This document shows positions 49,081 to 64,000 of a stretch of 64,000 bases of DNA, piece by piece. Position 1 is the first letter of the stretch. Every line of letters begins with the position of its first letter. Position numbers and translations under genes: made by a program. The DNA comes from Escherichia coli (GTDB lineage: Bacteria > Pseudomonadota > Gammaproteobacteria > Enterobacterales > Enterobacteriaceae), in NCBI RefSeq assembly GCF_044324785.1, contig NZ_CP172127.1, one strand, 5' to 3'. Under the pieces are notes generated by a model, which worked only from the letters and a program-made list of their open reading frames with translations, was not told the DNA's origin and did not search any database.

Positions 49081-49091
49081 GGAGTAAGATA

Positions 49092-50111
49092 ATGAAAAGC
49101 ATTTTAATTGAAAAACCGAATCAACTGGCAATTATCGAACGCGAAATACCCACCCCGTCAGCGGGTGAAGTACGAGTAAAAGTGAAACTTGCCGGAATTT
49201 GTGGTTCAGATAGCCATATTTATCGTGGGCATAATCCTTTTGCGAAATATCCGCGCGTCATTGGTCATGAATTCTTTGGCGTCATTGATGCAGTGGGTGA
49301 AGGCGTGGAAAGCGACAGAGTCGGTGAACGCGTTGCTGTCGATCCGGTGGTCAGCTGTGGGCATTGCTATCCGTGCTCTATAGGTAAGCCGAACGTTTGT
49401 ACGACACTGGCTGTATTAGGTGTGCACGCTGACGGTGGTTTCAGTGAATATGCCGTGGTGCCGGCAAAAAATGCGTGGAAAATTCCTGAAGCAGTGGCCG
49501 ATCAATATGCGGTGATGATCGAACCTTTTACCATTGCGGCTAACGTTACCGGTCATGGTCAACCGACTGAAAATGATACCGTTCTGGTTTACGGCGCAGG
49601 TCCAATCGGCCTGACGATCGTTCAGGTATTAAAAGGCGTCTATAACGTTAAGAATGTGATTGTTGCCGATCGCATTGATGAACGACTGGAAAAAGCGAAA
49701 GAGAGCGGGGCAGACTGGGCGATTAATAACAGCCAGACACCGCTTGGCGAGATTTTCGCTGAAAAAGGCATAAAGCCGACATTAATTATCGATGCGGCTT
49801 GTCATCCTTCAATCCTGAAAGAAGCCGTAACGCTGGCTTCTCCAGCGGCACGTATTGTATTGATGGGCTTCTCCAGTGAACCGTCTGAAGTGATTCAGCA
49901 AGGAATTACCGGAAAAGAACTCTCTATTTTCTCTTCACGCTTAAATGCAAATAAATTCCCGGTCGTTATCGACTGGTTAAGTAAAGGGTTAATTAAACCA
50001 GAAAAACTAATTACCCATACGTTTGATTTCCAGCATGTTGCTGATGCCATTAGTTTATTTGAACAGGATCAAAAGCATTGCTGCAAAGTCTTACTCACTT
50101 TTTCTGAATAA
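49092..50111 (+). CDS. rspB: zinc-dependent medium-chain dehydrogenase
   Basis: Start at internal Met MKSILIEKPNQLAII... giving 339 aa; Zn-binding GHE and CGHC motifs. Confidence 0.93.
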   Translation: MKSILIEKPNQLAIIEREIPTPSAGEVRVKVKLAGICGSDSHIYRGHNPFAKYPRVIGHEFFGVIDAVGEGVESDRVGERVAVDPVVSCGHCYPCSIGKPNVCTTLAVLGVHADGGFSEYAVVPAKNAWKIPEAVADQYAVMIEPFTIAANVTGHGQPTENDTVLVYGAGPIGLTIVQVLKGVYNVKNVIVADRIDERLEKAKESGADWAINNSQTPLGEIFAEKGIKPTLIIDAACHPSILKEAVTLASPAARIVLMGFSSEPSEVIQQGITGKELSIFSSRLNANKFPVVIDWLSKGLIKPEKLITHTFDFQHVADAISLFEQDQKHCCKVLLTFSE

Positions 50112-50168
50112 TACCAATAACGGCGAGTAAGTAGTACGCATCTTACCTCTTTTTTAGAGATAACCATT

Positions 50169-50297
50169 ATGACAATAGAAAAACACGAAAGAAGCACTAA
50201 GGATTTGGTGAAAGCAGCAGTATCGGGATGGCTGGGCACTGCGCTTGAATTTATGGATTTCAAGAGTCATACGTGTCAACTATTTGATAAATATTAA
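50169..50297 (+). pseudogene. ydfJ: 5' fragment of an MHS-family transporter gene interrupted by prophage insertion
   Basis: 42-codon ORF MTIEKHERSTKDLVKAAVSGWLGTALEFMDF... resembles MHS/ProP-type N-termini, then reads into unrelated sequence and stops 1 nt before the integrase gene. Confidence 0.6.
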
Positions 50298-50298
50298 A

Positions 50299-51594
50299 TT
50301 AATTTTTCATTGCTTCGTTATGGGGCATGGTTGGGGCAAACTCGCTTAACTGTGTATTTAACAAAGCTACCTGTGCATTATTGTTTTCAGACATCCATTT
50401 TCCGTATACCTGAAATACCATTTGCGCATCTGCATGGCCCATCTGGTTTGCTATAAATGCCGGATTAGCACCAGCTGTCAGCGACCAGCAGGCATAAGTA
50501 TGTCTCGACTGATATGATTTTCGATGGCGGAGTCCGGCACGTTTTATCGCTGCGTCCCACATCTGCCTTATTGAGTCAACGGTAAAATGGTCACCATAAT
50601 TTTTTACTCTCGCTGACACTTCAGGTTGAAAAACAAAGGTGCATTTATGTTTTTCTGTTCTGCCATACTCTCTGAGGTGAACATCAATGATATGCTCTTT
50701 GCTCAGTCTCGTTAATGTCATCTGACTCCGGAGAGCGTCGATTGCTGGCTTAATAAGATGAATGACCCGATTGGTTCCCGCCTGTGTTTTTGGTACCGTG
50801 AAACGGTCTTTTGCTAAATTTCTCCTGATCATCATTGTTCCATTTTTCAGATCTATGTCCTCCCATCCAAGTGCACACAGCTCACCAGGGCGAACGCCAG
50901 TATAAACAGAAACACACCATAAATTTTTGGCTTGCTGATTTCTGCACGCATCGATAAGACGGATGAATTCCTCCCGCGAAAGAGGATCCGGAATGGTTCT
51001 TGATTCCTTTAATGGCGAGATCCCCTTAAACGGGTTATCTGCCAGGTAACCGTTATCAACACCAAACTGGAACACGGCGTTAAGATTTGTCATGTAATTA
51101 TTTACAGTTACAGCCGATCTCCCTGGTTGTGTAACAATATAGTTACTTTTGGGGATCTGGTATCCAGTCAGTAGCTCTTTACGAACCTCCAGTAATTTTT
51201 CTTTATTAATCGATGAGGCAAGATTTTTTTCACCGATTATGCTCAGGATATTTTTGATGACGGCACGGTATGTGTTGAGTGATGTTTTTGCGACTTCAGT
51301 TTCTTTCAGTGCCAGAAATTTTTCAGCCAGTTCTTTTATGGTTAAATCTTGTCGAGTCTCACCAAATTTTTCCAGATTGCGTGAGGAGGGAAACTGTTTT
51401 GCATAGTCGAAAACACCAGTTTTTATTGCGTAACAAACAGAGGCGCGTAGCTCACCTGCAACGCGCCTGTTTTTTGCTGTGTCAGGAACCCCCAGGTTTT
51501 CCCTGACTCTTACGCCTTTATAAACAAACCAGATACGTAATTTCCCTCCATGGTTTTCCACGCCTGTCGGATATTTCATTTCAACTTCTCTCAT
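50299..51594 (-). CDS. int: prophage tyrosine-recombinase integrase
   Basis: ORF 431 aa with C-terminal catalytic region (…SRHTYACWSLTAGANPAFIANQMGHADAQMVFQVYGKWM); true start may be the Met 5 codons in (51579). Confidence 0.85.
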   Translation of the reverse strand: MREVEMKYPTGVENHGGKLRIWFVYKGVRVRENLGVPDTAKNRRVAGELRASVCYAIKTGVFDYAKQFPSSRNLEKFGETRQDLTIKELAEKFLALKETEVAKTSLNTYRAVIKNILSIIGEKNLASSINKEKLLEVRKELLTGYQIPKSNYIVTQPGRSAVTVNNYMTNLNAVFQFGVDNGYLADNPFKGISPLKESRTIPDPLSREEFIRLIDACRNQQAKNLWCVSVYTGVRPGELCALGWEDIDLKNGTMMIRRNLAKDRFTVPKTQAGTNRVIHLIKPAIDALRSQMTLTRLSKEHIIDVHLREYGRTEKHKCTFVFQPEVSARVKNYGDHFTVDSIRQMWDAAIKRAGLRHRKSYQSRHTYACWSLTAGANPAFIANQMGHADAQMVFQVYGKWMSENNNAQVALLNTQLSEFAPTMPHNEAMKN

Positions 51595-51613
51595 TAGTTA
51601 GTGTGGCTTTTAG

Positions 51614-51865
51614 TCAAGTAAGATGACGTCTTGGTCTTGCTGATGCCTGGCGCTCAATCCAGCGATCAATTTCTTCCAGGTTGTAAAAGCATGGACTGTT
51701 ATCCCATGGCATACCGTCATGAGCGACATGCTTATATTCCCTTCCTTCCATAAACGATTTTTCCCGGGCCTTTTTTAACGTACCTTTTTTTATTCCTTTC
51801 AGCGCAATTAACTGCTCTTCGGATACCCATTTGCCGGGAGAGACAATCATGATTACTTCGCTCAT
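51614..51865 (-). CDS. xis: putative excisionase-like small protein
   Basis: 83-aa ORF immediately upstream of and co-oriented with int; assignment by position and size. Confidence 0.55.
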   Translation of the reverse strand: MSEVIMIVSPGKWVSEEQLIALKGIKKGTLKKAREKSFMEGREYKHVAHDGMPWDNSPCFYNLEEIDRWIERQASARPRRHLT

Positions 51866-51937
51866 CGATTTCTTTATCTCTTACATCAGACGAGCGCCGG
51901 TTGCAGAATACCAGTCACAACCGGCGACAGTTGAACA

Positions 51938-54411
51938 TTAAGAATCAGCCTGACTCGGGATCAGTTTTTGCCAGATAACTGAAACGTATTTTGCCTGGTA
52001 ACGGGCGTCATCAAGTGCATTATGGCGCTCACCTTCGAATGGAATAGCCGTTCTGGCATCGAAGTCTATGGCTTTCCCCAGCTCAACGATTGTGCGTACA
52101 TCGCGATCGTTGTAGTAACGCCACGGGCAGGGGATCCCCTGCCGTTCGTATGAACGGCGCAAAATCGTGTTGTCGAAGTTGGCTCCATTTCCCCAAACCT
52201 GAACAAAAAATTCACCGGAGTTTTCGTCGATAAATTCCCGCAATTGTAACAGTGCATCATCTAACGGGATTTCATCGGTCATAATGGCCGATTGCGCTTC
52301 GCGTGATTGCTCTTAAGCCACCATTTAATGGTGTCCCGATCAATGACTCCGCCAGCAGTTTCCAGATCGATAGTCTTACTAAATTCCGGTCCCATATCTC
52401 CGGTTTGCGGATCGAAAAATATTGCACCTATTGAGATGATCGGGGCATCAGGATTTTTTCCCATGGTTTCAAGGTCGATCATTAGATGGTCACACGTCCT
52501 GCTGGTGGATGTGATTTCGTGATGACCGTTCACCTTAATTGAGTGATCTGCCGTCTCGCCAGTTTCATTATCGCTATCGTGATGCTGATTGCCGCCAGCG
52601 TTCTCCTTGTGTGGATGTTCAGCGCCTTCCATTTCCTCCGGATCATCTTCCTGAACTTCAACCTGATACTCTTCATCGAATGTTTCTTGGTATGTTGCGT
52701 CGCCCATCACCGCGCCACAATCAGGGCAGTTGCCGCCGCCGGTCTGACCGCAAGCGGTGCAGACTTTTTCCACTTCCTGTTGCGCCACTGATTCAGGCTG
52801 TTTCGTTTCTGGCTCGTTTTGTAACGCATTTGGGCTGTTTTGTTCCGCTTTTTGGTAGTTCCGTTCCGATTCATGCTGGTTCTGGTTCACAGAATCGCGG
52901 GTCTGGATCCCCTTAACCCATTTCGGATCATTCGGGTCACTAATCCCTTCAACAAATTCACCACGTGATGCAGCAAGCAACTTATCGGCGTCAGGCTGGC
53001 TGATATTGGCTGCCTGCATAATTTTGTTTACTTCGTCAGCGGTAACTTTTATCGGCTCTGGTTGTTCTGAATCTTCAGCGGTATCTACATTTTGCGGTAA
53101 GCCCGTGTATGTGCCATTTTTTCGGGCAAAATATTCTTCTTTTGTGATTTCAGTGGCGCCAGCAGCCAGTGCCTTATCCAGACCAGAAAGTTTGTTTGCG
53201 CGACCGTATTTTTCTCCGTCCTTATCTGCGAAGAGGAAATAGAACGGCCCCTCACGCTCTACAGATGGTTCAGCTTCCGGTGCGGTTTCATTTTTTGGGA
53301 TATCAGATACCTCAGTTTCCACTGCATCAGTTTGTGTTTCTGATGACTTGAGAACATCAACAGTGCCCAGGTCTGTTTCTTCATTCTCAAACACGCCCTT
53401 TGTCGTCAGGTATTCGCAGATATATTTGTTCAGTGCTACGGGATCTTTGTGAATGTCGATCGGACGCTCACGGACAAGGCCAAAAATAGTTTGGCGGTCG
53501 TAGCGAAGGGCATCAGGCTGTTTGCGTATTGATGCCGAGATACGCTTCCAGTCTTCGCGGTCGTTGTCGATAACTTCATTTTTTGCCCAGCGATGGATGC
53601 TGCCGTCAATGTTTCCGGCATCCACATCACCAGGCCAGAGAGCGTAGGCCAGTTCGTCATCCAGTGTTTTCCATGTCTGCTTGTATTCGCGATGAATGGC
53701 AGCAATGACCGGGCTGATTTTTCCTGTTGAATTTTCAGTGTACTGTTGATTGGCTCTGGCGCGGGCGAGATCAACAACAGACGTGTATTTTCCGGTTTCC
53801 TTGCGTTCACCTTCGCGACGTTTTTTCCAGATGCGCATCTCTGCCTGAATTTCGGGCCATTTAGCACCAGGAATACATTTATGCTTAACCCACCCAATGG
53901 CGTGCAACTTAAGCTCCGGATACATGGCGTTAACTTCTGGCATTTTCATCAACGCTTCAACGATATGTCCGTTGAATGTTGCCATGTCTTCCTGCAACAA
54001 TTCCTGTGCGCTAATAACCATATCAACGGTGATGTTTTCACATGTGTCGAACTTAACCATGACAGCGTTCTGTACTTCAGGGGCCAGCTTGTCAAAAGTG
54101 ACGTTCATCGGATCGGATTCAGTCTCAACCGGGACAAAAGAAGCAGACTCCTCATCCCAGCGGTTTTCCTGCATATATTCAGCATCCCATGAATCGAGGG
54201 CAGGGCGGGGTATACCAGGTTTATCCTCGCAGACAATAAATTTATAAGCGCAGTCCTGAGCAGCCGGATAATGTTCCAGGAATTGCCAGTGAAATTTTGC
54301 TCGAGCACGGCGTTCGTCGCCAGCTTCAATGGCTGTGGCTACAGCCACAGCGCCTTCTTCCCTTGTTGCCAGTTCGTCAGGAATAGCGGCGCAAATAAAG
54401 ACTTTACTCAT
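51938..54411 (-). pseudogene. RecE-family (exodeoxyribonuclease VIII-like) gene with C-terminal DEDDh exonuclease domain, split by a frameshift
   Basis: ORFs 52279..54411 (710 aa) and 51938..52282 (114 aa) overlap by ATGA; Exo I motif (HLMIDLETMG) is in the upstream ORF, Exo II/III (FGNGANFDNT, HNALDDARYQAKY) in the downstream ORF; frames differ by 2 nt around 52310-52311. Confidence 0.75.
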
Positions 54412-54534
54412 TTTGTTTTAACCTCATGACAGATTTAAGGATGAACAAATCCCTGCCATTGCTGGCATATAAGAATGAAACCGGATATTTATTACGGAAC
54501 TGTTTTAAAGACCTGCCGGGATTTCGATATTATC

Positions 54535-54696
54535 CTAGTGAATAACTTTATCGACCGGGTAACAGTTACCGGGAATTTTCTGTTCGGTTGCTGCAGTCAT
54601 ACACTCCTGCATTGTCCTGTGAACACTGACTGCAATATCAACTGGCACTCCGGAAACAAGAAAAACTGTCAGAACAAGCGCAAATGCTGAATTCAT
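54535..54696 (-). CDS. ydfD: small membrane protein, YdfD-like (prophage lysis protein family)
   Basis: 53-aa product MNSAFALVLTVFLVSGVPVDIAVSVHRTMQECM...; ATG overlaps dicB stop (ATGA); assignment by position and partial recall. Confidence 0.6.
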   Translation of the reverse strand: MNSAFALVLTVFLVSGVPVDIAVSVHRTMQECMTAATEQKIPGNCYPVDKVIH

Positions 54697-54881
54697 TGTG
54701 CACATCCTTTTGGCATCAGACGTAAACGAGCCAGCATTGAAACAATGCATATTTTATTTAATAGCTCCCGTTCTTGTTTTCTCTTGTTAATGGCATCTTC
54801 AGTAAATACAGGGTTACTGATAGTGACACCAATTTCAAAACAACCTTCAGACGTATTAACGTTTGGTAATAACGTTTTCAT
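54693..54881 (-). CDS. dicB: cell division inhibitor DicB
   Basis: 62-aa product MKTLLPNVNTSEGCFEIGVTISNPVFTEDAINKRKQERELLNKICIVSMLARLRLMPKGCAQ, recognised DicB. Confidence 0.9.
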   Translation of the reverse strand: MKTLLPNVNTSEGCFEIGVTISNPVFTEDAINKRKQERELLNKICIVSMLARLRLMPKGCAQ

Positions 54882-55055
54882 TATCGCGCCCTCAACAATG
54901 AGTTTTGTGATGCGGTGCCTGGTGCCTCCAGGTGACGTTAACCAGTTAACAATTAACGCCGGATACAGAGAATCCACCCATAACACTGTTTTTGGTTTTA
55001 ACTGTTCCGCGTGCGCTCAGCCGCATTCACCACATCACAAAATTCACTTTAAAAA

Positions 55056-55108
55056 GGGCGGCAGAGCAGTCACGGAGTAAAACTGATACCGCCAAACGTC
55101 ACCAGAAA
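55056..55108 (-). ncRNA. dicF: DicF small regulatory RNA
   Basis: Minus strand reads TTTCTGGTGACGTTTGGCGGTATCAGTTTTACTCCGTGACTGCTCTGCCGCCC followed by TTTTT; recognised DicF with 3' GC hairpin. Confidence 0.88.
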
Positions 55109-55448
55109 ATTGATAACAGAGGGCGTTGCAGCGGGGTTGTCACTTAAGCGTATGGTCAACCTGACAACCCGGTGTCCTCAACGGGGAAGGAATAACCCCG
55201 CCATACTTACCGCCGCGCCATTTCGCGGGTTGCCACAACCGGAAGCGCACGGTCGACGAAAATTTAACGACAGGCTATCTATGAACCAGCTACCTCGCCG
55301 TGCGCTTTCGCGTTATGGTCTGACTTTTCAGGGAAATATCCTTTCAGTAAACTGTCAGTGCCGGATGCTCACCCGTGTCCGGCGCACGCACTCCACCTCA
55401 CCCGTGGAGAACTCCTTAATTACCAACCTTAGCTTCGTTGGTTAGCTA

Positions 55449-55667
55449 TTAACGCGGGTATGTAATCATTCTGGCAATGCTTAATGCCGCTGCTTTTTCC
55501 AGATTGGTGATATCCTGCTCCAGAGAGAACAGATTTTCAGCCTGCTTAGCCCTGGCTTCATTAGCCCATTTCAGATCCTGCGCTGCATTAATTTTCTGGT
55601 GCATCCACTCATAAAGTTCATCATCGGTATAGTCTGGCGCGATGATAACGGGTTCTCGTTTCTGCAT
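55449..55667 (-). CDS. ydfC: prophage small protein, YdfC-like
   Basis: 72-aa ORF between ydfB and dicF; assigned by size and position in the dicB operon. Confidence 0.6.
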   Translation of the reverse strand: MQKREPVIIAPDYTDDELYEWMHQKINAAQDLKWANEARAKQAENLFSLEQDITNLEKAAALSIARMITYPR

Positions 55668-55697
55668 ACTGATTCCTTGCGGTGCTGTTTCGCTTAT

Positions 55698-55826
55698 CAG
55701 CCGTTAGATTTTGCCGAACTGGAAAGCGCCTGTTTAAATTCGCTGAAGCTGAGAGCTTCTTCGCCTTCGGCAAGGCCTTCGAAGTATTCTTCGTAAGCCT
55801 TTTCCATGATTGTGTCGAAATCCATA
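55698..55826 (-). CDS. ydfB: prophage small protein YdfB
   Basis: Not in ORF track (42 aa): MDFDTIMEKAYEEYFEGLAEGEEALSFSEFKQALSSSAKSNG; starts right after ydfA stop. Confidence 0.7.
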
Positions 55827-55982
55827 TCACCCACCTGAATTTCTTTCCAGCCAGCGACGCGCTCCAGATTCGGTTTTAAACGTTTTGCTTTTGGTATACG
55901 TCATTGCGGTGAACGTGCCGTCCTGGTTTGGAAACACGCCGTACACCAGAGATTCGTTGTTGCCAAGATCGATAGTATCCAT
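55827..55982 (-). CDS. ydfA: prophage small protein YdfA (DUF1391)
   Basis: Start at internal Met MDTIDLGNNESLVYGVFPNQDGTFTAMTYTK... giving 51 aa; first gene after dicA. Confidence 0.75.
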   Translation of the reverse strand: MDTIDLGNNESLVYGVFPNQDGTFTAMTYTKSKTFKTESGARRWLERNSGG

Positions 55983-56095
55983 GCTGACCTCATTTCCCCT
56001 TAACGCCGGGGTAGCGGAACTGTTTGCTGAGAACACCGTGCGGTGTCTTGATGGAAAATAATTTAGAATAACCTAACATGAGAGGCAAGTGTTTT

Positions 56096-56113
56096 TGTTA
56101 GATTGATCTAACA
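56096..56113. promoter_or_regulatory. Operator-like palindrome TGTTAG-N6-CTAACA in the dicB-operon promoter region
   Basis: TGTTAGATTGATCTAACA with flanking T5/A5, between dicA stop and ydfA start. Confidence 0.6.
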
Positions 56114-56149
56114 AAAAGGGTGGGCGCAACTAATCACTTGAAAAGAATG

Positions 56150-56557
56150 TTATTTTATTGATTTATTTTTACGCGCTTTAAGCATTTCTTCGAAGAGTTT
56201 GTTGAAGTTTTCTACTCTTGCGCGCATTTCAGACAGCAAGGCTTCCTGCTCGGAAGATGGAAGAGCATCGAATAATTCGATCAATTCTTTGTGGTTGGGA
56301 GTTAGCTCTGTTTCCACATGAAGTTCTTGTGCAGGCACTGGTGCCTTGTCTTCGTCACCAAACATTAGCCATGTAGGTGAGCACTTCAGAGCATCCGCTA
56401 AAGCAAACAATCGTTTTCCGACTGGCTGGGTTTCGTCTCTTTCCCATTGTGAAATTGTGACGTGAGCAACTCCAGCGAGGCGCGCGGCTTCTCGTTGTGT
56501 TAAGCGTAATTCTTTTCGTCGCGCCAGAACTCGCTGGCCCAGGGTTCTTGTATCCAT
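56150..56557 (-). CDS. dicA: HTH-XRE repressor, DicA-like (cI-type)
   Basis: 135-aa ORF with N-terminal HTH (LRLTQREAARLAGVAHVTISQWERD); same length and architecture as DicA but diverged from the K-12 sequence as I recall it. Confidence 0.8.
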   Translation of the reverse strand: MDTRTLGQRVLARRKELRLTQREAARLAGVAHVTISQWERDETQPVGKRLFALADALKCSPTWLMFGDEDKAPVPAQELHVETELTPNHKELIELFDALPSSEQEALLSEMRARVENFNKLFEEMLKARKNKSIK

Positions 56558-56579
56558 AGTTAGGTAATTCTAATTTTTC

Positions 56580-56624
56580 TTGACTTAGGTATCCCGCGCA
56601 CAATAATGTTAGAAAAGTCTAACA
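56580..56624 (+). promoter_or_regulatory. Putative dicC promoter (-35 TTGACT, 16-17 bp, -10 AATAAT) overlapped by operator TGTTAG-N6-CTAACA
   Basis: Hexamers and the palindrome TGTTAGAAAAGTCTAACA at 56607-56624 read directly; a weaker third site GTTAG-N6-CTAAT at 56559-56576 overlaps dicA start. Confidence 0.55.
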
Positions 56625-56634
56625 AGAGGGGGAT

Positions 56635-56865
56635 TTGATGCTTAAAGTTGACGCAATTACTTTTTTTGGCAGCAAAACAAAGCTTGCCAATGCCGCAGGA
56701 GTGAGGCTGGCAAGTGTTGCTGCTTGGGGGATACTGGTTCCTGAAGGTCGCGCGATGCGTCTACAGGAGGCATCTGGCGGGGAGCTTCAGTATGATCCCA
56801 AAGTTTATGATGAATATCGTAAGACGAAGCGGGCGGGGCGGTTGAACAATGAAAATCACTCCTGA
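56635..56865 (+). CDS. dicC: Cro-like regulator DicC
   Basis: 76-aa ORF divergent from dicA (MMLKVDAITFFGSKTKLANAAGVRLASVAAWG...). Confidence 0.75.
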   Translation: MMLKVDAITFFGSKTKLANAAGVRLASVAAWGILVPEGRAMRLQEASGGELQYDPKVYDEYRKTKRAGRLNNENHS

Positions 56866-57370
56866 ACAGGCTCGTGAGGCTCTGGATGCCTGGATATGTC
56901 GACCAGGAATGACACAGGAGCAGGCGACGATATTAATCACTGAAGCATTCTGGGCTTTGAAAGAGCGCCCGAACATCGATGTTCAGCGTGTCACAGATGA
57001 AGGTGGCGCGGTTGATCAGCGAGCGCTTGGTGTTAATCGAGTGAAGATATTCGAACGCTGGAAGGCTATCGACACCAGGGATAAGCGTGAAAAGTTCACG
57101 GCGCTAGTGCCTGCGATTATGGAGGCTATCCGGATTAGTGATTTCAGGTTGTATCGTGAAATTACTGACGGAAAAAGCATCACGTGCATGATCGCCGGGT
57201 TAAACAAAGAATATGGCGATGTGGTGGAGTCCGGACTGCTTTTTGCTGATCCTGCCGTAGTGGATCGTGAAACTGACGAACTTATAGAAAAAGCAATTGC
57301 TTTCAAGCTTGCGTATCGACAGCAATACCAACAAAAAGCTGGATGGAATTATGAGCCTTCTTTTTGCTGA
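56849..57370 (+). CDS. hypothetical prophage protein at the cII-equivalent position (possibly YdaT-like)
   Basis: 173-aa ORF whose ATG overlaps the dicC 3' end; no recognisable motifs. Confidence 0.5.
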   Translation: MKITPEQAREALDAWICRPGMTQEQATILITEAFWALKERPNIDVQRVTDEGGAVDQRALGVNRVKIFERWKAIDTRDKREKFTALVPAIMEAIRISDFRLYREITDGKSITCMIAGLNKEYGDVVESGLLFADPAVVDRETDELIEKAIAFKLAYRQQYQQKAGWNYEPSFC

Positions 57371-58316
57371 ACGCCCACTGGTTATAAACACGCAGCTGGC
57401 AATGAAAATTGGCTTAAACGAAGCCATTGTTTTGCAACAACTGCACTACTGGTTGAGAGATACCAACTCCGGCATGGAATGTGATGGTGTTCGCTGGATT
57501 TATAACACAACGGAACAATGGCTGGAACAGTTCCCATTCTGGTCAGAGTCAACGTTAAAGCGCGCGTTTGCAAGTCTGAAAACGCTGGGGCTTTTGCGTT
57601 GTGAAAAGCTCAATAAATCAAAGCGCGATATGACCAATTTCTACACGATCAACTATGGGAGCGAGCTTTTAGATGGTGGCAAATTGAGCGAATCCATCGG
57701 TTCAAAATGCGCCGCTCCATCAGGTCAAAATGACACGATGGAAGAGGTCAAAATGAAACGCTCCATTGATTCAAAACGACCCAATGTCATCGGGTCAAAA
57801 TGGCCTGATGATCTTACAGAGAATACAACAGAGATTACTACAGAGAATAAAAACACTTTTCGTCCGGAAGCTTCGCAACCGGACCCGCAGACGACTGAAC
57901 AGGATTTTTTAACCCGGAACTCCGACGCGGTTGTGTTTAGTGCGAAAAAACGCCAGTGGGGTAGCAGGGAGGATTTGGCGTGTGCGCAGTGGATCTGGGG
58001 GCGGATCGTGGGTCTCTACGAACAGGCAGCCAGTGATGATGGCGAGATCATGCGACCAAAAGAGCCTAACTGGACTGCCTGGGCCAATGACGTGCGCACA
58101 ATGCGGATGCTGGATGGCAGAAGCCACAGACAAATTTGCGAAATGTTTGGTCGGGTTCAGCGAGATCCATTCTGGGTAAAAAACATCATGAGCCCGTCAA
58201 AGCTCCGCGAAAAATGGGACGAACTGGTCATCCGCCTGGGACGTTCACCTGTACAGCGTTGTGTTAATCATATTTCTGAACCGGATACAGAAATTCCGCC
58301 TGGTTTCAGAGGATAA
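57351..58316 (+). CDS. phage replication initiation / replisome organizer protein (lambda O-like) containing the origin iterons
   Basis: ORF track frame 57297..58316; likely start at MSLLFAERPLVINTQLAMKIGLNEAIVLQQLHYWL...; iterons and AT-rich tract lie inside the coding sequence. Confidence 0.7.
   Translation: MSLLFAERPLVINTQLAMKIGLNEAIVLQQLHYWLRDTNSGMECDGVRWIYNTTEQWLEQFPFWSESTLKRAFASLKTLGLLRCEKLNKSKRDMTNFYTINYGSELLDGGKLSESIGSKCAAPSGQNDTMEEVKMKRSIDSKRPNVIGSKWPDDLTENTTEITTENKNTFRPEASQPDPQTTEQDFLTRNSDAVVFSAKKRQWGSREDLACAQWIWGRIVGLYEQAASDDGEIMRPKEPNWTAWANDVRTMRMLDGRSHRQICEMFGRVQRDPFWVKNIMSPSKLREKWDELVIRLGRSPVQRCVNHISEPDTEIPPGFRG
57699..57802 (+). repeat. Replication origin iterons: five direct repeats of GGT(T)CAAAATG at 22-25 bp spacing, followed by AT-rich tract 57810-57855
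   Basis: Repeats at 57699, 57723, 57746, 57768 and 57793, then ACAGAGAATACAACAGAGATTACTACAGAGAATAAAAACACTTTT. Confidence 0.7.
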
Positions 58317-58356
58317 GTGTTGATTTCAGGTCATGAGGTAATTTTAAGGGGGACTT

Positions 58357-58779
58357 GTGGCAAAAGTTTTTACACAAGAAGAGCGGGAAAAAATTAAATG
58401 GCAGGTGGTGGAACTCGTGCGCCAGAGCGGCCGTGAGACGTTACGGCAACTGGAAGCTAAAACAGGTGCGACTAGATATCTGATGAGCGTTCTTGCCAGA
58501 GAGCTGGTAGCCAGTGGCGATGTATACAACTCCGGCTACGGGTTATTCCCCTCTGAACAGGCGCGTAAGGACTGGCAAAACGCCCGCAAAAAACTCTCGA
58601 GGGCAAAGGTGAAGAAACCTGCTGTGGTTGATCCGGACCTTATCTGGTCATCACCTGACGGAGAAATACGTCGCTACGACAGTCGCCTAAACATAATCTG
58701 TCGCGAGTGCCGGAAGAGCGAAGTTATGCAGCGCATACTGGCTTTCTATCAGGGTAATTTTCAGGACGTGGCGCAGTGA
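58357..58779 (+). CDS. hypothetical prophage protein
   Basis: 140-aa ORF, basic, Cys pair CRECRK near C-terminus; no family recognised. Confidence 0.5.
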   Translation: MAKVFTQEEREKIKWQVVELVRQSGRETLRQLEAKTGATRYLMSVLARELVASGDVYNSGYGLFPSEQARKDWQNARKKLSRAKVKKPAVVDPDLIWSSPDGEIRRYDSRLNIICRECRKSEVMQRILAFYQGNFQDVAQ

Positions 58780-59222
58780 GTGCACCGGCAACCATTCTTG
58801 ATATGTGCTGTGGCAGCCGCATGTTCTGGTTCGATAAGTCTGACGAACGGGCGATATTTAGCGATATCAGAAAAGAAGGATACACATTACGCAATGGGAG
58901 ACGCTTGATTATCAGCCCTGACATTATCGCAGATTTTCGTGCATTATCATTTGCAGACGCATCTTTTTCGATGGTTGTATTAGACCCTCCGCATCTTGAG
59001 CGTGTTGGTGATAACGCCTGGATGGGAAAGAAATATGGACGGCTGAATAAAGATGCCTGGCGTGATGATTTGCGACAGAGATTTAAAGAAGCTTTTCGGG
59101 TGTTGAGGCCGCACGGCGTTCTGATTTTTTAATGGAATGAAACGCAAATACCGGTAAGCCAGATTCTGGCACTGACAGATAGAAAGCCTGTTATCTGTCA
59201 ACGAACAGGGAAAAAACGATAA
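58776..59222 (+). pseudogene. putative SAM-dependent DNA methyltransferase interrupted by an in-frame TAA
   Basis: Motifs ILDMCCGSR and VVLDPPH; TAA at 59130-59132 after ...VLIF, then 29 more in-frame codons (WNETQIPVSQILALTDRKPVICQRTGKKR) before a second stop. Confidence 0.5.
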
Positions 59223-59394
59223 AACCCACTGGATTATTTTTATGAAAGAGGCATCCAGTGAGTAGATTCGTAAGGTTACAGATACGTATATCTGAATAAT
59301 TAAATTCAGTTCTGTAAATAAAACTTAATCCTTAACCGGATGGATTTCTGCACCCTCAGAACATCAGGAGGCCGCCCGAAAGGGCGGTAGTGAA

Positions 59395-60030
59395 ATGCGA
59401 AAGTTCAAAATTATTATTGAAACGGGAATAGCTGGTGGAGATTTTGAGGATGTATTCGAAGTGGACGATGACGCAACACCTGATGAAATTCATGACGGAG
59501 CATAAGAAATTTTCTTTAACTACTGCAATTACTCATACCACGAAATAAAAGACGATGAGGAAGAACAAAGTGGCTGATTTTTGTTCAGCTAAATATAACA
59601 TCAGTTTTGAAGAGCGGGATGAACTATTAATGGACTATGGTGAGTTACGCGGTGGAAGTGCTGCTGATGTCGAATCCTAGCGTGATGACTATGAAGCGGG
59701 AAAAACTCCGGTCGAAGCATATTGTGAGGAGTGGGGCGATGAATGAGCGAGATTAATTATCAGGAAGGGCATGAAACGGCGGGGCAAGCAAAACCAGTGA
59801 CATGGCGATATCGCTACGTGAAAAAAGGCGTTACGGACTTTCAGGGGAAGTAGTGGTCTGGTGACTGGAAATATGTACCGAAAAAAGAGGATTGTAACGA
59901 CAGGCCGAACTATCAAATTCAGGCCTTATTCACTGCCTCACCAGTCCCGGTTACATCAGAAGAATTGGTTAAAGCTGTGCACTTTTATGAACAACTAAAA
60001 CGCGAAAATCCACCAACATCCGGCAACTAG
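59395..60030 (+). pseudogene. cluster of short ORF fragments in shifting frames, likely decayed prophage gene(s)
   Basis: Successive 15-60 codon ORFs separated by stops and frame changes (MRKFKIIIETG..., MRKNKVADFCSAKYNISF..., MSEINYQEGHETAG..., ...KYVPKKEDCNDRPNYQIQALF...). Confidence 0.4.
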
Positions 60031-60284
60031 ATTAATGGGTTAACTATGTCGGTTAAACGACCAGCCAACTGAAAAAGCGGAAACCTGATTACAGGTTGCC
60101 AGATAAGGCAATGAGCTACCTGGCGCGGAACGGACTGATAAGTATGGGGAATGTTTTACGATGAACCTTTAGACTAAAGAGTTTGTAACGCTATGTAAGT
60201 GATTTTTTCTGGTTTAGATATTTATATGTCCGGCCAAATTGAGGTGTGTTTAAATGTAATTGCACATTGATTGTAGGAGGAATA

Positions 60285-60464
60285 ATGAAAAACGCATTGC
60301 AGTTTTTGTTTGTTGCGTTCTGGTTGTTCGCATCATGTATGCCCATCATCTTCACAGCAAGGTATATGGAAAAAGTTGATGTTTTGATATTAATATTTGG
60401 ATATATAAATGCCCTTTTTTTAGGGGTGTTCATGGCGGTCATGTGCATTGAATACTGGCGGTAA
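60285..60464 (+). CDS. unrecognised 59-aa two-helix membrane protein
   Basis: ATG preceded by consensus AGGAGG at 60275-60280 (4-nt spacer); product MKNALQFLFVAFWLFASCMPIIFTARYMEKVDVLILIFGYINALFLGVFMAVMCIEYWR; AT-rich context. Confidence 0.55.
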   Translation: MKNALQFLFVAFWLFASCMPIIFTARYMEKVDVLILIFGYINALFLGVFMAVMCIEYWR

Positions 60465-60798
60465 ATACAGCGAACTCCATTGGTTTAGTTGGATATTTAC
60501 TGTGCTGGACAAAAACGGTTTGCGGGGAAATCTTAGTTAAGTAGAATGACTGCGGGTGCTTGAGGCTATCTGCCTCGGGCACGAACACCAACGGCAGGTA
60601 GAGAAAAGCCCCAGTTAACATTACGCGTCCTGCAAGACGCTTAACATTAATCTGAGGCCAATTTCATGCCAGACACATGTAGGTTAGCCTCTTACGTGCC
60701 GAAAGGCAAGGAGAAGCAGGCTATTGTTAACACCAAGCTGTAATGTCCCCTTTGAACCATTCTAAAATGTCCCCAGACAATTCTCTGGGGGATTTTTC

Positions 60799-61764
60799 AT
60801 GACCAAAGAAACTGTTACGATGAGTCATAAGGAACTCCACCGACTTCAGATTATTCAGGAGTCAATTAATCGACATATTACTCAGGAACAAGCTGCGGCA
60901 CGCATTGGCATTTCTATTCGGCAGGTTAAACGTCTGGTGCAACGGTATAGAAATGAAGGGCCTTCTGGTCTGGTTTCCCACCGACGTGGAAAGCGTCCTA
61001 ATAATTCCTTTTCTACTGAATTCAGAGCAACAGTAATTTTACTCCTCAAAGGCCGTTACGCTGATTTTGGACCTACGTTTGCGTGCGAAAAATTGCGCGA
61101 GATACACGGTTTATCTTTATCCGTTGAAACTCTCAGAAAGTGGATGATAGAAGAGGGGGGTATGGCGTGAACGCCGTCGTAAAATTGCCCGTATATATCA
61201 ACGCCGCATGCGACGACCATCTTACGGTGAACTGATCCAGATTGATGGCTCACCTCATGACTGGTTTGAAAATCGAGGCCCCAGATGTACACTGATCGTT
61301 TTCATTGATGATGCCACCAGTGCGTTGATGGCGTTGCGTTTTGTGCCTGCTGAAACAACCCGGGCTTACATGGAAACCCTCCGGGGTTACCTTAATGATC
61401 ATGGCGTACCGCTCGCTCTCTACTCTGATAGACACAGTATATTCAGGGTAAATAACCCAGAGCGGGAAGGTGAGCTGACCCAGTTCACTCGTGCGATAAA
61501 GACACTGGGCATCGAGCCAATCCATGCCAACAGCCCGCAGGCAAAAGGGCGGGTAGAGCGCGCCAATCAGACACTACAGGACAGGCTGGTCAAAGAAATG
61601 CGGCTTCAGAATATCAGTGATATTGAAACAGCAAATGCATGGTTGCCGACCTTTATTGAAGCCTATAACAACCGGTTCGCTACGTCGCCTCGTACTACTG
61701 ATAATGCTCATCTTGATGTGCACCATTCTGAAGAGGAACTGGGTTATATCTTCAGCCTACAGGC
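60799..61764 (+). pseudogene. IS481/ISNCY-like DDE transposase gene (HTH plus rve core), frameshifted at a G6 run and interrupted by IS903
   Basis: ORF 60799..61170 (HTH) and frame-shifted ORF opening at 61151 (…IQIDGSPHDWFENRG…RVERANQTLQDRL); frames would fuse if the G6 run at 61155-61160 were G5; coding sequence broken at 61764. Confidence 0.7.
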
Positions 61765-62821
61765 GGCTTTGTTGAATAAATCAGATTTCGGGTAAGTCTC
61801 CCCCGTAGCGGGTTGTGTTTTCAGGCAATACGCACGCTTTCAGGCATACCTGCTTTCGTCATTTTGTTCAGCGCTCGTACCAGGGCCATAGCCTCCGCAA
61901 CCTGACCATCGTAGTCACGCAGCGTCAGTGAACCCCCGAACAGCTGTTTTACCCGGTACATCGCCGTTTCCGCTATCGAGCGACGGTTGTAATCTGTTGT
62001 CCATTTCCACCGCGCATTACTCCCGGTCATTCGCTGATTAGCCACTGCACGGTTACGGTCTGCATATTCACCGGGCCAGTAACCCGCACCTTTTCGGGGA
62101 GGGATAAGCGCGCTGATTTTCTTACGCCGCAGTTCATCGTGACATAGCCGGGTATCGTAAGCGCCATCGGCGGCGGCTGACCTGATTTTCCGGTGGGTTT
62201 GCCGGATTAACCCGGGGAAGGCCTCTGAGTCCGTAACGTTGTTCAGCGACAGGTCAGCGCAGATGATTTCATGTGTTTTACTGTCAACGGCGAGATGCAG
62301 CTTACGCCAGATACGGCGGCGTTCCTGGCCATGCTTTTTGACTTTCCACTCGCCTTCACCGAAGACCTTCAGCCCGGTGGAATCAATTACCAGGTGTGCG
62401 ATTTCACCCCGGGTGGGCGTTTTGAAACTGACATTAACCGACTTTGCCCGCCTGCTGACACAGCTGTAATCCGGGCAGCGTAGCGGAACGTTCATCAGAG
62501 AAAAAATGGAATCAATAAAGCCCTGCGCAGCCCGCAGGGTCAGCCTGAATACGCGTTTAATGACCAGCACAGTAGTGATGGCAAGGTCAGAATAGCGCTG
62601 AGGTCTGCCTCGTGAAGAAGGTGTTGCTGACTCATACCAGGCCTGAATAGCTTCATCATCCAGCCAGAAAGTTATGGAGCCACGGTTGATGAGGGCTTTA
62701 TTGTAGGTGGGCCAGTTGGTGATTTTGAACTTTTGCTTTGCCACGGAACGGTCTGCGTTGTCGGGAAGATACGTGATCTGATCCTTCAACTCAGCAAAAG
62801 TTCGATTTATTCAACAAAGCC
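61765..62821 (-). mobile_element. IS903-type insertion sequence (1057 bp) with 9-bp target site duplication CCTACAGGC
   Basis: Terminal inverted repeats GGCTTTGTTGAATAAATC at both ends; identical 9-bp direct repeats at 61756-61764 and 62822-62830. Confidence 0.9.
61821..62789 (-). CDS. IS903 transposase (IS5 family)
   Basis: ORF 322 aa (…AKQKFKITNWPTYNKALINRGSITFWLDDEAIQAWYESATPSSRGRPQRYSDLAITTVLV…), recognised IS903/IS102 transposase; true start may be a few codons in. Confidence 0.88.
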   Translation of the reverse strand: MKDQITYLPDNADRSVAKQKFKITNWPTYNKALINRGSITFWLDDEAIQAWYESATPSSRGRPQRYSDLAITTVLVIKRVFRLTLRAAQGFIDSIFSLMNVPLRCPDYSCVSRRAKSVNVSFKTPTRGEIAHLVIDSTGLKVFGEGEWKVKKHGQERRRIWRKLHLAVDSKTHEIICADLSLNNVTDSEAFPGLIRQTHRKIRSAAADGAYDTRLCHDELRRKKISALIPPRKGAGYWPGEYADRNRAVANQRMTGSNARWKWTTDYNRRSIAETAMYRVKQLFGGSLTLRDYDGQVAEAMALVRALNKMTKAGMPESVRIA

Positions 62822-62830
62822 CCTACAGGC

Positions 62831-63206
62831 GAAGCGCGTTCTGTCTAAAAATCTCACTTTCCAGTACAAAAGCAGTGCGTTTCAGGTACGCAGTGAGGGC
62901 CGGGGATATCGACTTAGGCATTCGGTTGTTACTGTATGCGAGAACTTTGACGGTGAAATTAACGTTCTGTATGACGGGAAAGCGCTGGGCTGGGAAAAGT
63001 ATGTTGATGGCCCGGAGCCTATACCACTGGATGATGAAAAGAGTGTCCATGAACGAGTGGATAATGCCCGTATTGATTTACGCTCAAAATACTATGTTAA
63101 ACCTAAAGCTGACCATCCCTGGCTTACGCGCCGAACGCAAAGTCATCAGCAAGTTAAGCCCCCGAAGTTACCTAAAAAGAAGCCTGATCCCGATAAAAAA
63201 GATTGA
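62831..63206 (+). pseudogene. 3' part of the IS481/ISNCY-like transposase gene displaced by the IS903 insertion
   Basis: After removing IS903 and one TSD copy the reading frame continues from 61764 into 62831 (…SLQ|AKRVLSKNLTFQYK…) to a stop at 63204-63206. Confidence 0.7.
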
Positions 63207-63601
63207 AACCAAGATCGATTCGGTTGAGTGCATATCCATTCATAGGGTAGATTCTTAAGTCGCGTTTCTGGTGTTCATTTTCGGGTGGTTTGTTACTTGT
63301 TTTACCGGGGATATGCCAGAAACGCGCTGAGTCAGTCTGGGCGGTGCGCGTAATGAGGCGTTATGGTAAATAGCCTATGCTAATGTCCGCTAAGAGCAAG
63401 AAGCGGAAGTTGGCAGTTTTGTGGACTGTCCCCACAAATGTGACTACAGAAATAGTTGCAATTCATAATTGATCATGGGTTGTCAGTTAAACTCGTGGCG
63501 ATTTAAATAGACTAATTGGGAGTGCGTCCATTACTTATATCTTGTAATGTTAACTATCAGAAATGATACAAAGATAATATGTCTTTAAAGAAAAGGCTGA
63601 T

Positions 63602-63628
63602 GGCGAAAAGTGGCCCGATGAGGGCCAC
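63602..63628 (-). terminator. Rho-independent terminator after flxA
   Basis: GTGGCCC-tcatc-GGGCCAC hairpin followed by TTTTCGCC on the minus strand. Confidence 0.7.
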
Positions 63629-63642
63629 AATACGGCTGTCAC

Positions 63643-63975
63643 TTAGACGTAAATATCAATGGTGCCAGCGGTATTTGTATCGTCTTTTTTCTCTTCTTTT
63701 TTATCAGGCTGAACTGTCGCGTCTTTATTCTTTTTCTCTGCCTGCTGCCTTAACAACTGCTCCAGTTGAGCCCTGAGGCTTTCAATTTGCTTCTGTACCA
63801 ATGCAGCCATTTCTTTTTTCTGCTGTGTCGTCATCCCCTCTTCCGATGAGATTTTCCCAAGCTTTTCAGTCAGCACCTGAATTTGTCTTGTGATTTTGGC
63901 TATTTCTGATGTTCCTTCCGGGGCGGAGTTGTTTGAAATAACGGTTGAGGTATTTCCCTGAATTGTGACAGACAT
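63643..63975 (-). CDS. flxA: Qin prophage protein FlxA
   Basis: ORF 110 aa (MSVTIQGNTSTVISNNSAPEGTSEIAKITRQIQVLTEKLGKISSEEG…), recognised FlxA. Confidence 0.88.
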   Translation of the reverse strand: MSVTIQGNTSTVISNNSAPEGTSEIAKITRQIQVLTEKLGKISSEEGMTTQQKKEMAALVQKQIESLRAQLEQLLRQQAEKKNKDATVQPDKKEEKKDDTNTAGTIDIYV

Positions 63976-64000
63976 AGATTTCTCCTTTTAAAAAAGCACT

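What the first reader, a model, noticed from the sequence alone, without database searches (positions are those of the whole stretch)
50169..64000. Prophage arm inserted in ydfJ next to rspB appears less decayed than the K-12 Qin remnant
Core synteny ends at rspB. A 42-codon ORF resembling the N-terminus of an MHS-type transporter (ydfJ) then runs directly into a tyrosine integrase gene, putting the attachment junction at about 50255-50300. From memory, the MG1655 copy has an IS2-disrupted intQ, a short ydfE fragment and only ydfX/ydfW remnants between dicC and flxA. Here int and the excisionase-like gene are uninterrupted, the exonuclease is nearly full length, and a replication module with ori lies between dicC and flxA. 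This looks like an earlier stage of decay of a Qin/Kim-type prophage, or a related phage at the same site.
Basis: partly seen in the sequence, partly recalled or inferred. Interest (0 to 1): 0.45.

Follow-up and report, generated by a model that had tools for sequence, protein, structure and literature searches.

The report
Fuller Qin-type prophage arm in ydfJ
This is the integrase-to-replication half of a common lambda-like prophage inserted in the E. coli ydfJ gene, a fuller relative of the K-12 "Qin" remnant; it is real but ordinary and already described.

Summary
Core synteny ends at rspB. The 42-codon ORF at 50169 starts at the true ydfJ ATG, and its first 31 codons are ydfJ. The att core TTATGGATTTC lies at 50251-50261.

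Against MG1655 Qin the arm is collinear at 96-99.7% identity, but it keeps two blocks that K-12 lost:
- 51459-53644: the int 5' end, xis and the 3' part of the exonuclease gene. K-12 has an IS2 remnant here.
- 57129-63021: the rest of ydaT, an O-like initiator with five iterons, DUF977, pseudogenes, a hok/sok leader and an ISEsa1-type transposase. K-12 lost this block between 8/9-matching short repeats, which created ydfX and ydfW.

It is not a direct ancestor of K-12 Qin, because the immunity region differs (DicA 75/135 aa). It is also not intact. It carries a 2-bp frameshift in the exonuclease, a ydfD nonsense codon, pseudogenes, and an IS903-like element nested in the transposase.

The state is common. 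257 complete E. coli genomes carry at least 80% of the 15-kb stretch. Strain G47-1 has the same arm at 99.94% inside a ~48-kb near-complete prophage. Phages HannyBb and PhiR42_1 share Int (427/431 aa) and Xis (83/83 aa). Qin at ydfJ is already published.

Side lead: flxA-ydfV-relBE appears to be cargo of an ISEsa1-type transposon that inserts at the hok start.

The parts
49092..50111 (+). rspB, the last core gene before the prophage
   Evidence: Annotated rspB in G47-1 and MG1655 aligns here.
50169..50297 (+). ynfP-like ORF. It is the 5' fragment of ydfJ (31 codons, 50169-50261) fused to 11 phage-derived codons.
   Evidence: Same ATG as the intact 455-aa ydfJ in empty-site genomes. K-12 ynfP is the equivalent ORF.
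50251..50261 (.). att core TTATGGATTTC, forming the rspB-side bacterial/phage junction
   Evidence: The same 11 nt occur at the ydfJ-side junction in MG1655 and G47-1, in the reconstructed attB, and in the joined attP of phage PhiR42_1.
50299..51594 (-). tyrosine integrase, uninterrupted
   Evidence: PHROG 1 integrase, E=3e-77. 427/431 aa identical to HannyBb and PhiR42_1 Int. K-12 intQ lacks the part beyond 51458.
51614..51865 (-). excisionase
   Evidence: PHROG 539 excisionase, E=1e-35. 83/83 aa identical to the phage Xis proteins. Absent from K-12.
51938..54411 (-). exonuclease gene (K-12 ydfE is its N-terminal fragment), frameshifted by a CT insertion at 52310-52311
   Evidence: PHROG 2082 is split over a 710-aa and a 114-aa ORF. 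The 2-bp insertion is seen relative to G47-1. With it removed, the protein is 815/823 aa identical to the HannyBb exonuclease.
54505..54696 (-). ydfD lysis gene with a premature stop (Q54*, stop codon at 54535-54537)
   Evidence: Translation compared with G47-1 and K-12. The SNP is at 54537.
54693..54881 (-). dicB cell-division inhibitor
   Evidence: NF049927, 131 bits. Protein identical to K-12 DicB.
55056..55107 (-). DicF small RNA
   Evidence: Rfam RF00039, 76.7 bits against a gathering score of 48.
55449..55982 (-). ydfC, ydfB and ydfA
   Evidence: Positions transferred from the G47-1 annotation and checked by translation.
56150..56557 (-). DicA-like repressor, a different allele from K-12
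   Evidence: HTH repressor PHROGs. 75/135 aa identical to K-12 DicA. There is no DNA-level match to K-12 over 56269-56544.
56638..56865 (+). DicC/Cro-like regulator
   Evidence: PHROG 409. 65/76 aa identical to K-12 DicC, with the differences in the N-terminal half.
56849..57370 (+). YdaT-family / cII-like gene. K-12 ydfX is its first 93 codons.
   Evidence: PHROG 163. ydfX alignment and the left deletion endpoint at 57128.
57351..58316 (+). O-like replication initiator
   Evidence: PHROG 391, E=1e-91. 318-320/321 aa identical to the phage proteins.
57702..57856 (+). ori-like region: five TCAAAAYG iterons at 23-24 bp spacing, then an A-rich stretch
   Evidence: Function is inferred by analogy with lambda ori, which lies inside the O gene.
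58357..58779 (+). DUF977 / Ren-like gene
   Evidence: PHROG 142, E=2e-47.
58776..60533 (+). decayed accessory region: truncated DNA methyltransferase, DUF7167 gene and a hypothetical pseudogene
   Evidence: The PHROG 954 match is partial. RefSeq pseudogene calls in G47-1 and E94.
60534..60724 (+). orphan hok/mok/sok leader, including the left 16-nt repeat AGGAGAAGCAGGCTAT at 60709-60724
   Evidence: Rfam sok RF01794, 99.8 bits. 97.9% identical to the intact hok locus of phage HannyBb, and the homology stops at 60724.
60725..64000 (+). left part of an ISEsa1-type transposon. The transposase module runs to 63411, then the flxA cargo follows. The unit continues beyond the window (ydfV, relB, relE in relatives).
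   Evidence: Left end TGTTAACACC... at 60725. The unit is 99% identical on Enterobacter IncF plasmids. Complete copies carry 16-17-nt duplications.
60799..63206 (+). ISEsa1 (IS1202-family) transposase gene, inactivated by a 1-bp insertion near 61155 and by a nested IS. K-12 ydfW is its last 49 codons.
   Evidence: NF033594 matches are spread over three ORFs. Comparison with the intact plasmid copy. ydfW identity.
61765..62821 (-). IS903-like element (IS5 family), 1057 bp, with the 9-bp duplication CCTACAGGC
   Evidence: Terminal inverted repeats GGCTTTGTTGAATAAATC. NF033579, 357 bits. Flanks. Absent at this site in G47-1.
63643..63975 (-). flxA
   Evidence: 99.7% DNA identity to K-12 over 63022-64000. 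Translation checked.

Best explanation
Positions 50251-64000 are the early (int-proximal) arm of a lambda-like temperate prophage of the Qin / mEp460 / HannyBb type.

How it got there. The phage integrated by tyrosine-integrase recombination between an attP and an attB that share the 11-bp core TTATGGATTTC. The attB core sits at codons 28-31 of ydfJ. Integration cut off the promoter and the first 28 codons of ydfJ, leaving the small ynfP-like ORF next to rspB.

What the arm holds, in order:
- int and xis;
- the exonuclease gene;
- the dicB operon (ydfD, dicB, DicF, ydfC, ydfB, ydfA);
- a divergent DicA-type repressor and DicC-type Cro pair;
- a cII/YdaT-like gene;
- an O-like initiator with an internal iteron origin;
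- a DUF977 gene;
- a decayed accessory stretch;
- a hok/sok locus split by an ISEsa1-type transposon that carries flxA, ydfV and relBE.

Relation to K-12. Qin derives from a very similar phage through two further losses. One is an IS2-associated deletion that removed the int 5' end, xis and the exonuclease 3' part. The other is a deletion between short imperfect repeats, running from inside ydaT to inside the transposase gene.

State of this copy. It is less decayed than K-12 but not pristine, and it carries a different immunity allele. It is therefore a sister of K-12 Qin rather than its ancestor.

Shown versus inferred. Shown: sequence identity, junctions, deletion endpoints and lesions. Inferred: the recombination mechanism, origin function, and the order of decay events.
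For: - Collinear matches to MG1655 with two K-12-specific gaps. K-12 annotation of intQ', IS2E, ydfE', ydfX and ydfW.
- Deletion endpoints and fragment identities.
- The att core at both junctions, in attB and in attP.
- Intact attB in 2010 of 5426 complete genomes, with the intact 455-aa ydfJ starting at the same ATG.
- The same arm at 99.94% identity in a ~48-kb prophage with complete head and tail genes in G47-1.
- Isolated or deposited phages with near-identical Int, Xis, O and exonuclease.
- Family assignments and iterons.
- Published description of Qin at the 5' end of ydfJ with loss of 28 codons, 48% prevalence and sizes of 11-97 kb (PMC6379469).
Against: - Only one junction and one arm lie in the window. 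The late genes and the ydfJ-side junction of this particular genome are unseen.
- The immunity region is not the K-12 allele, so 'earlier stage of Qin' is not literally true.
- No complete E. coli genome matches the flanking core better than 99.0%, so the exact host lineage is unknown.
- Origin and integrase activity were not tested.
Confidence: 0.9

Rival explanations
1. The element is still a fully functional, inducible temperate phage, not a decaying remnant.
For: - Int, Xis and the O-like protein are 99-100% identical to those of phages HannyBb and PhiR42_1.
- PhiR42_1 carries the same ISEsa1-relBE unit, yet its record contains a joined attP. That is consistent with excision.
- The G47-1 relative has complete head and tail genes.
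- The lesions seen here (exonuclease, ydfD, IS903-like in a transposase) hit genes that are probably dispensable for lytic growth.
Against: - The late region of this genome is outside the window.
- Three of the eight differences from G47-1 (seven point or indel differences plus the IS insertion) are inactivating: a frameshift, a nonsense codon and the IS insertion. That hints at relaxed selection.
- Several accessory genes are pseudogenes.
Confidence: 0.3
2. It is an unrelated phage that merely uses the same ydfJ attachment site, so comparing it with Qin says nothing about decay.
For: The immunity cassette differs (DicA 56% aa identity). Lambdoid phages are mosaics.
Against: Every segment that K-12 retains is collinear and 96-99.7% identical. 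K-12's gene fragments map exactly onto whole genes here.
Confidence: 0.04
3. The region is the same as K-12 Qin, collinear with the same lesions.
For: Same site, same core and same gene order in the shared parts.
Against: 8.1 kb present here is absent from MG1655, and there is no IS2 here.
Confidence: 0.01

Closest known systems
Cryptic prophage Qin (Kim) of E. coli K-12 MG1655, 1632277-1652745
   Same: Same insertion site and att core. Same order: int, exonuclease, ydfD, dicB, DicF, ydfC, ydfB, ydfA, dicA, dicC ... ydfW, flxA. 96-99.7% nucleotide identity in shared segments.
   Different: Here int is whole, and xis and the full exonuclease extent are present. The ydaT gene, the O-like gene with iterons, DUF977, the hok leader and the ISEsa1 transposase are also present. 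There is no IS2. The DicA/DicC alleles differ. This copy has private lesions: the exonuclease frameshift, ydfD Q54* and an IS903-like insertion.
Escherichia phages PhiR42_1 (PV340562), HannyBb (PP925841), mEp460_ev081 and Tritos
   Same: 61-95% of 50262-60750 is covered at 96-98% identity. Int, Xis, O-like protein and exonuclease are near-identical. PhiR42_1 also carries the ISEsa1-flxA-relBE unit and shows the attP junction.
   Different: These are free or excised phage genomes. The immunity regions differ. HannyBb has an uninterrupted mok/hok locus and no transposon.
Qin-type prophage of E. coli G47-1 (NZ_CP195164) and about 250 other complete genomes
   Same: The arm is 99.94% identical, with the same immunity allele and the same transposon.
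   Different: G47-1 lacks the exonuclease frameshift, the ydfD stop codon and the IS903-like insertion. Its flanking rspB differs by 2%.
Lambda early region (int-xis-exo ... cI-cro-cII-O with ori inside O)
   Same: Same modular logic: a divergent repressor/cro pair, a cII-like gene, and an initiator gene containing iterons followed by an A/T-rich stretch. The lambda layout itself is from my own knowledge.
   Different: There is no lambda-level sequence identity. I identified no P-type helicase-loader gene. The dicB operon sits where lambda has its b-region and recombination genes.
ISEsa1, IS1202 family (Harmer & Hall 2023, PMC10132070)
   Same: The transposase is 99% identical to annotated ISEsa1 copies. 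The left end starts with TGT, and the imperfect terminal repeat is about 26 bp.
   Different: The literature lists ISEsa1 as 1609 bp with no target duplication and no known target. Here the unit that carries 16-17-nt duplications is larger and ends beyond relE.

Membership tests
Qin/Kim-type prophage at ydfJ | Inserted in the 5' end of ydfJ, next to rspB | tested here: met
   The ydfJ start and 31 codons lie at 50169-50261, followed by phage DNA.
Qin/Kim-type prophage at ydfJ | Same att core at both junctions | tested here: inconclusive
   The rspB-side core is present at 50251-50261. The ydfJ-side junction of this genome lies outside the window. It is present in MG1655 and G47-1.
Qin/Kim-type prophage at ydfJ | Collinear early genes: int, exonuclease, ydfD, dicB, DicF, ydfC, ydfB, ydfA, dicA, dicC | tested here: met
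Qin/Kim-type prophage at ydfJ | Same immunity (DicA/DicC) allele as K-12 | tested here: not met
   DicA is 75/135 aa identical. There is no DNA match over 56269-56544.
Lambdoid temperate phage | Tyrosine integrase plus excisionase next to att | tested here: met
   PHROG 1 and PHROG 539. Near-identity to phage proteins.
Lambdoid temperate phage | Initiator gene with an internal iteron origin | tested here: met
   PHROG 391. Five iterons at 57702-57812. Origin activity was not tested.
Lambdoid temperate phage | Q antiterminator, lysis cassette, terminase, head and tail genes | not testable with these tools
   These lie outside the window. They are present in the G47-1 relative.
IS1202-family (ISEsa1-type) transposon | DDE transposase of the ISNCY/IS1202 type | tested here: met
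   NF033594: 282.6 bits on the middle fragment (cut-off 250), with further matches on the flanking fragments. Only 5 differences from an intact copy across the transposase region.
IS1202-family (ISEsa1-type) transposon | Imperfect ~24-26-bp terminal inverted repeats with TGT...ACA ends | tested here: inconclusive
   The left end is in the window at 60725. The right end lies outside it. In complete copies elsewhere the ends match at 19 of 26 positions by my own alignment. No statistical test was done.
IS1202-family (ISEsa1-type) transposon | Target-site duplication flanking the unit | tested here: inconclusive
   Only the left copy is in the window (60709-60724). Both copies are seen in G47-1, CP096189, CP032294 (16 nt) and CP104841 (17 nt).
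[quoted passage not shown] | sok/mok leader RNA | tested here: met
   RF01794, 99.8 bits against a gathering score of 59.
[quoted passage not shown] | Hok reading frame directly downstream of the leader | tested here: not met
   There is no Hok ORF after 60724. In relatives hokD lies 3.3 kb away, after relE.
IS903 group, IS5 family | About 1057 bp, terminal inverted repeats, 9-bp duplication, IS5-type transposase | tested here: met
   The name IS903 and its reference length are from my own knowledge.

The most novel reading that the evidence does not exclude
The well-studied K-12 relBE toxin-antitoxin genes, together with flxA and ydfV, may not be phage genes. They may be cargo of a transposon that has an ISEsa1-type (IS1202-family) transposase at one end and relBE at the other.

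This transposon makes 16-17-nt target duplications and often inserts at the ribosome-binding site and start codon of hok genes. That would explain three things:
- the 'relBEF' operon;
- the orphan hok leader in this window;
- why ISEsa1 was reported to have no target duplication, if its right boundary had been placed too early.

Evidence. Complete copies of 3.3, 4.6 and 12.8 kb carry different cargo: flxA-ydfV, cytochrome b plus a cation transporter, or nickel and chromate resistance. They were seen at three different target sequences, each duplicated on both sides. Left ends abut at least five different hok alleles.

I found no paper describing this in the searchable library. The probability covers both parts of the claim: that the unit is real and that it is undescribed.
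Probability: 0.45. Interest if true: 0.45.

Novelty: already known. Interest (0 to 1): 0.2.

Why it matters
For the finding as given, it matters little. It confirms with sequence evidence that K-12 Qin is a doubly deleted derivative of a widespread lambda-like phage group that uses ydfJ as its attachment site. It also gives exact origins for four K-12 orphan ORFs: ynfP, ydfE, ydfX and ydfW. That is useful for annotation but not surprising.

The side lead could matter more. If relBE, flxA and ydfV travel as transposon cargo that targets hok loci, the origin of a model toxin-antitoxin system would need reframing. It would also give an IS1202-family element a defined target and a revised boundary.

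Tried and rejected
- I first read the element nested in the transposase as IS10/ISVsa5, because that name appeared in the best BLAST hit. Rejected. It is a 1057-bp IS5-family element with IS903-type ends. The ISVsa5 in strain E94 sits elsewhere.
- E94 and E92 covered 100% of the query. That is only because they carry an IS903-like copy at another position. They are not the source strain.
- No complete E. coli genome matches the flanking 22 kb better than 99.0%, so the source strain was not identified.
- I looked for a right inverted repeat or a duplication at the published ISEsa1 boundary (window ~63411) and found none. Sequence similarity among copies simply stops there, where the cargo changes.
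- The single genome-contig scan with the left-end sequence returned only five loci, with flanks too short to reach the right ends.
- Rfam found nothing at gathering threshold in 1-49000.
- The iteron pattern search used a pattern derived from the iterons themselves. Its chance estimate is therefore not independent evidence.
Full report
**Observation**

- rspB ends at 50111.
- A 42-codon ORF follows at 50169-50297.
- A tyrosine integrase (50299-51594) and an excisionase (51614-51865) come next, both on the minus strand and both uninterrupted (PHROG 1 and PHROG 539).

I joined the window sequence up to 50261 to the MG1655 ydfJ sequence after the shared core. This reconstructed site matched 2010 of 5426 complete E. 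coli genomes in one piece, the listed hits at 99.8% identity, annotated as rspB next to an intact ydfJ. In one such genome ydfJ is 455 codons and starts at the position equivalent to window 50169. So the short ORF is the true 5' end of ydfJ, an MHS-family MFS transporter by RefSeq naming. It runs for 31 codons and then enters phage DNA. It is the counterpart of K-12 ynfP.

**Attachment site**

I compared four sequences: the rspB-side junction here, both junctions in MG1655 and G47-1, the reconstructed attB, and the joined attP found inside the phage PhiR42_1 record. They share an exact core, TTATGGATTTC, at window 50251-50261. Around it is a looser 20-nt similarity. The annotated end of K-12 Qin maps to window 50262.

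**Comparison with K-12 Qin**

BLAST of 49000-64000 against MG1655 gives four collinear blocks:

| Window | Content | Identity |
|---|---|---|
| 49000-51458 | rspB, ynfP, intQ | 98.3% |
| 53645-56268 | ydfE to dicA | 96.0% |
| 56545-57128 | dicC, ydfX | 86.6% |
| 63022-64000 | ydfW, flxA | 99.7% |

Two blocks are missing from K-12.
- *51459-53644.* This is replaced in K-12 by the 706-bp IS2E remnant. The replacement removed the first ~45 codons of int, all of xis, and the 3' part of the exonuclease gene, leaving ydfE as an N-terminal fragment.
- *57129-63021.* This was lost between GGAGGCTA and GGAGCCTA, which match at 8 of 9 positions.

That second deletion created two K-12 ORFs. ydfX is the first 93 codons of the YdaT-family gene plus three foreign codons. 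ydfW is the last 49 codons of an ISEsa1 transposase.

The K-12 deletion junction occurs in 360 of 5426 complete genomes. A 400-bp probe across the undeleted ydaT point is covered in 2123 genomes, not necessarily all at this site. K-12 is therefore the derived state.

**What the extra DNA encodes**

- *Exonuclease.* The gene has its full extent (51938-54411). A CT insertion at 52310-52311, relative to G47-1, splits it into 710-aa and 114-aa ORFs. With the two bases removed, the protein is 815/823 aa identical to the phage HannyBb exonuclease.
- *Replication module.* Downstream of the DicC-like gene lie a cII/YdaT-like gene, an O-like initiator (PHROG 391, E=1e-91) and a DUF977/Ren-like gene. 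Inside the initiator gene are five TCAAAAYG repeats starting at 57702, 57725, 57748, 57771 and 57795, followed by an A-rich stretch. This is the arrangement known for lambda ori, which I state from my own knowledge. I found no separate helicase-loader gene.
- *Accessory region.* A decayed stretch follows, holding a truncated methyltransferase and pseudogenes.

**Not a strict ancestor, and not pristine**

The immunity region is a different allele. There is no DNA match to K-12 over 56269-56544. DicA is 75/135 aa identical and DicC 65/76. Phage PhiR42_1 also diverges from the window at exactly this cassette.

The prophage part is 99.94% identical to that of strain G47-1 (7 differences in 11.5 kb). 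The adjacent rspB segment differs by 2%. No complete genome matches the flanking 22 kb better than 99.0%. The arm is thus much more conserved than its chromosomal surroundings. That pattern fits recent spread by infection better than long vertical descent, though this is an inference.

Compared with G47-1, this copy has three inactivating changes of its own:
- the exonuclease frameshift;
- a nonsense codon in the lysis gene ydfD (Q54*);
- a 1057-bp IS903-like insertion (61765-62821, with the duplication CCTACAGGC) inside the transposase gene.

**How common and how well known**

- 257 complete genomes hold at least 80% of the 15-kb stretch in one place.
- In G47-1 the element is about 48 kb, with terminase, head, tail and lysis genes annotated.
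- Deposited phages PhiR42_1, HannyBb, mEp460_ev081 and Tritos cover 61-95% of the arm at 96-98% identity.
- Int is 427/431 aa, Xis 83/83 aa and the O-like protein 318-320/321 aa identical to those of PhiR42_1 and HannyBb.
[quoted passage not shown] It also reports presence in 48% of 638 strains, and sizes of 11-97 kb across the 189 strains compared.

The finding is therefore correct but already known.

**Side lead: a transposon carrying relBE**

Rfam finds a sok/hok leader at 60554-60725, but no Hok frame follows it. In phage HannyBb the mok/hok locus is continuous. Its 5' part matches window 60534-60724. Its 3' part matches hokD downstream of relE in G47-1 and K-12. The two matches overlap by 16 nt.

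In G47-1 that 16-mer, AGGAGAAGCAGGCTAT, flanks a 3.3-kb block: ISEsa1 transposase, flxA, ydfV, relB and relE.

Other copies with the same ends:

| Record | Size | Cargo | Flanking duplication | Target |
|---|---|---|---|---|
| G47-1 prophage | 3.3 kb | flxA, ydfV | AGGAGAAGCAGGCTAT | hokD start |
| CP096189 (Enterobacter IncF) | 3.3 kb, 99% identical | flxA, ydfV | AGGAGAAGAAGGCCAT | a different hok allele |
| CP032294 | 12,842 bp | nickel and chromate resistance | AGGAGAAGAAGGCCAT | same plasmid hok allele |
| CP104841 | 4.6 kb | cytochrome b, cation transporter | ACTATCAGGACAAACGT (17 nt) | not hok |

All copies share the ends TGTTAACACCAAGCTGTAATGTCCCC and GGTGACACTTCTGCTTTGCGTTGAC(A). By my own alignment these match at 19 of 26 positions as inverted repeats with TGT...ACA termini. 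Left ends also abut three further hok alleles, in Salmonella, Pseudocitrobacter and Kluyvera, and two targets that are not hok.

Harmer and Hall list ISEsa1 as 1609 bp with no detectable duplication and no known target (PMC10132070). My reading is that the mobile unit is larger and ends beyond relE, and that it prefers the hok start region. I found no paper stating this, but I could not consult ISfinder or TnCentral.

The window holds only the left duplication copy, the left end, the disabled transposase and flxA. The rest lies beyond position 64000.

**Verdict**

This is a sister allele of K-12 Qin rather than its ancestor, and it carries its own lesions. Novelty: already known. Interest is low for the finding itself. 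The transposon lead is the only part that might be new.

Noticed in passing
window 60534-64000, continuing beyond the window; L001 29709-33041; L007, L010, L019: A block made of an ISEsa1-type transposase, flxA, ydfV, relB and relE splits a mok/hok/sok locus. It is flanked by a 16-nt duplication. Copies with the same ends but different cargo (3.3, 4.6 and 12.8 kb) sit on Enterobacter plasmids with 16-17-nt duplications. Left ends abut at least five different hok alleles. The literature lists ISEsa1 as having no duplication and no known target.
   Followed up: partly
window 63057-63206; MG1655 ydfW and ydfX: K-12 'protein YdfW' is the last 49 codons of the ISEsa1 transposase. 'YdfX' is the first 93 codons of a YdaT-family gene. 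The two were joined by a deletion between 8/9-matching short repeats.
   Followed up: yes
window 54535-54537: The lysis gene ydfD carries a premature stop (Q54*) that is absent from G47-1 and K-12. Three of the few differences from G47-1 are inactivating, which may mean relaxed selection or selection against a toxic gene.
   Followed up: partly
window 61765-62821: A 1057-bp IS903-like (IS5-family) element with the 9-bp duplication CCTACAGGC is nested in the already frameshifted ISEsa1 transposase. This insertion site was not present in the two top-ranked genomes I checked (G47-1 and E94).
   Followed up: yes
window 49000-50250 versus 50262-61764: The prophage arm is 99.94% identical to that of strain G47-1, while the adjacent rspB differs by 2%. 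No complete E. coli genome matches the flanking 22 kb better than 99.0%. The host lineage therefore seems unrepresented among complete genomes, and the prophage looks recently spread.
   Followed up: partly
window 56231-56726: The immunity cassette (DicA N-terminal half, operator region, DicC N-terminal half) is swapped relative to both K-12 and phage PhiR42_1, but is identical in G47-1 and E94. This is classic lambdoid mosaicism.
   Followed up: partly
window 60246-60464: A 72-codon ORF predicts a hydrophobic small protein just upstream of the hok leader. It has no family match in NCBIfam.
   Followed up: no
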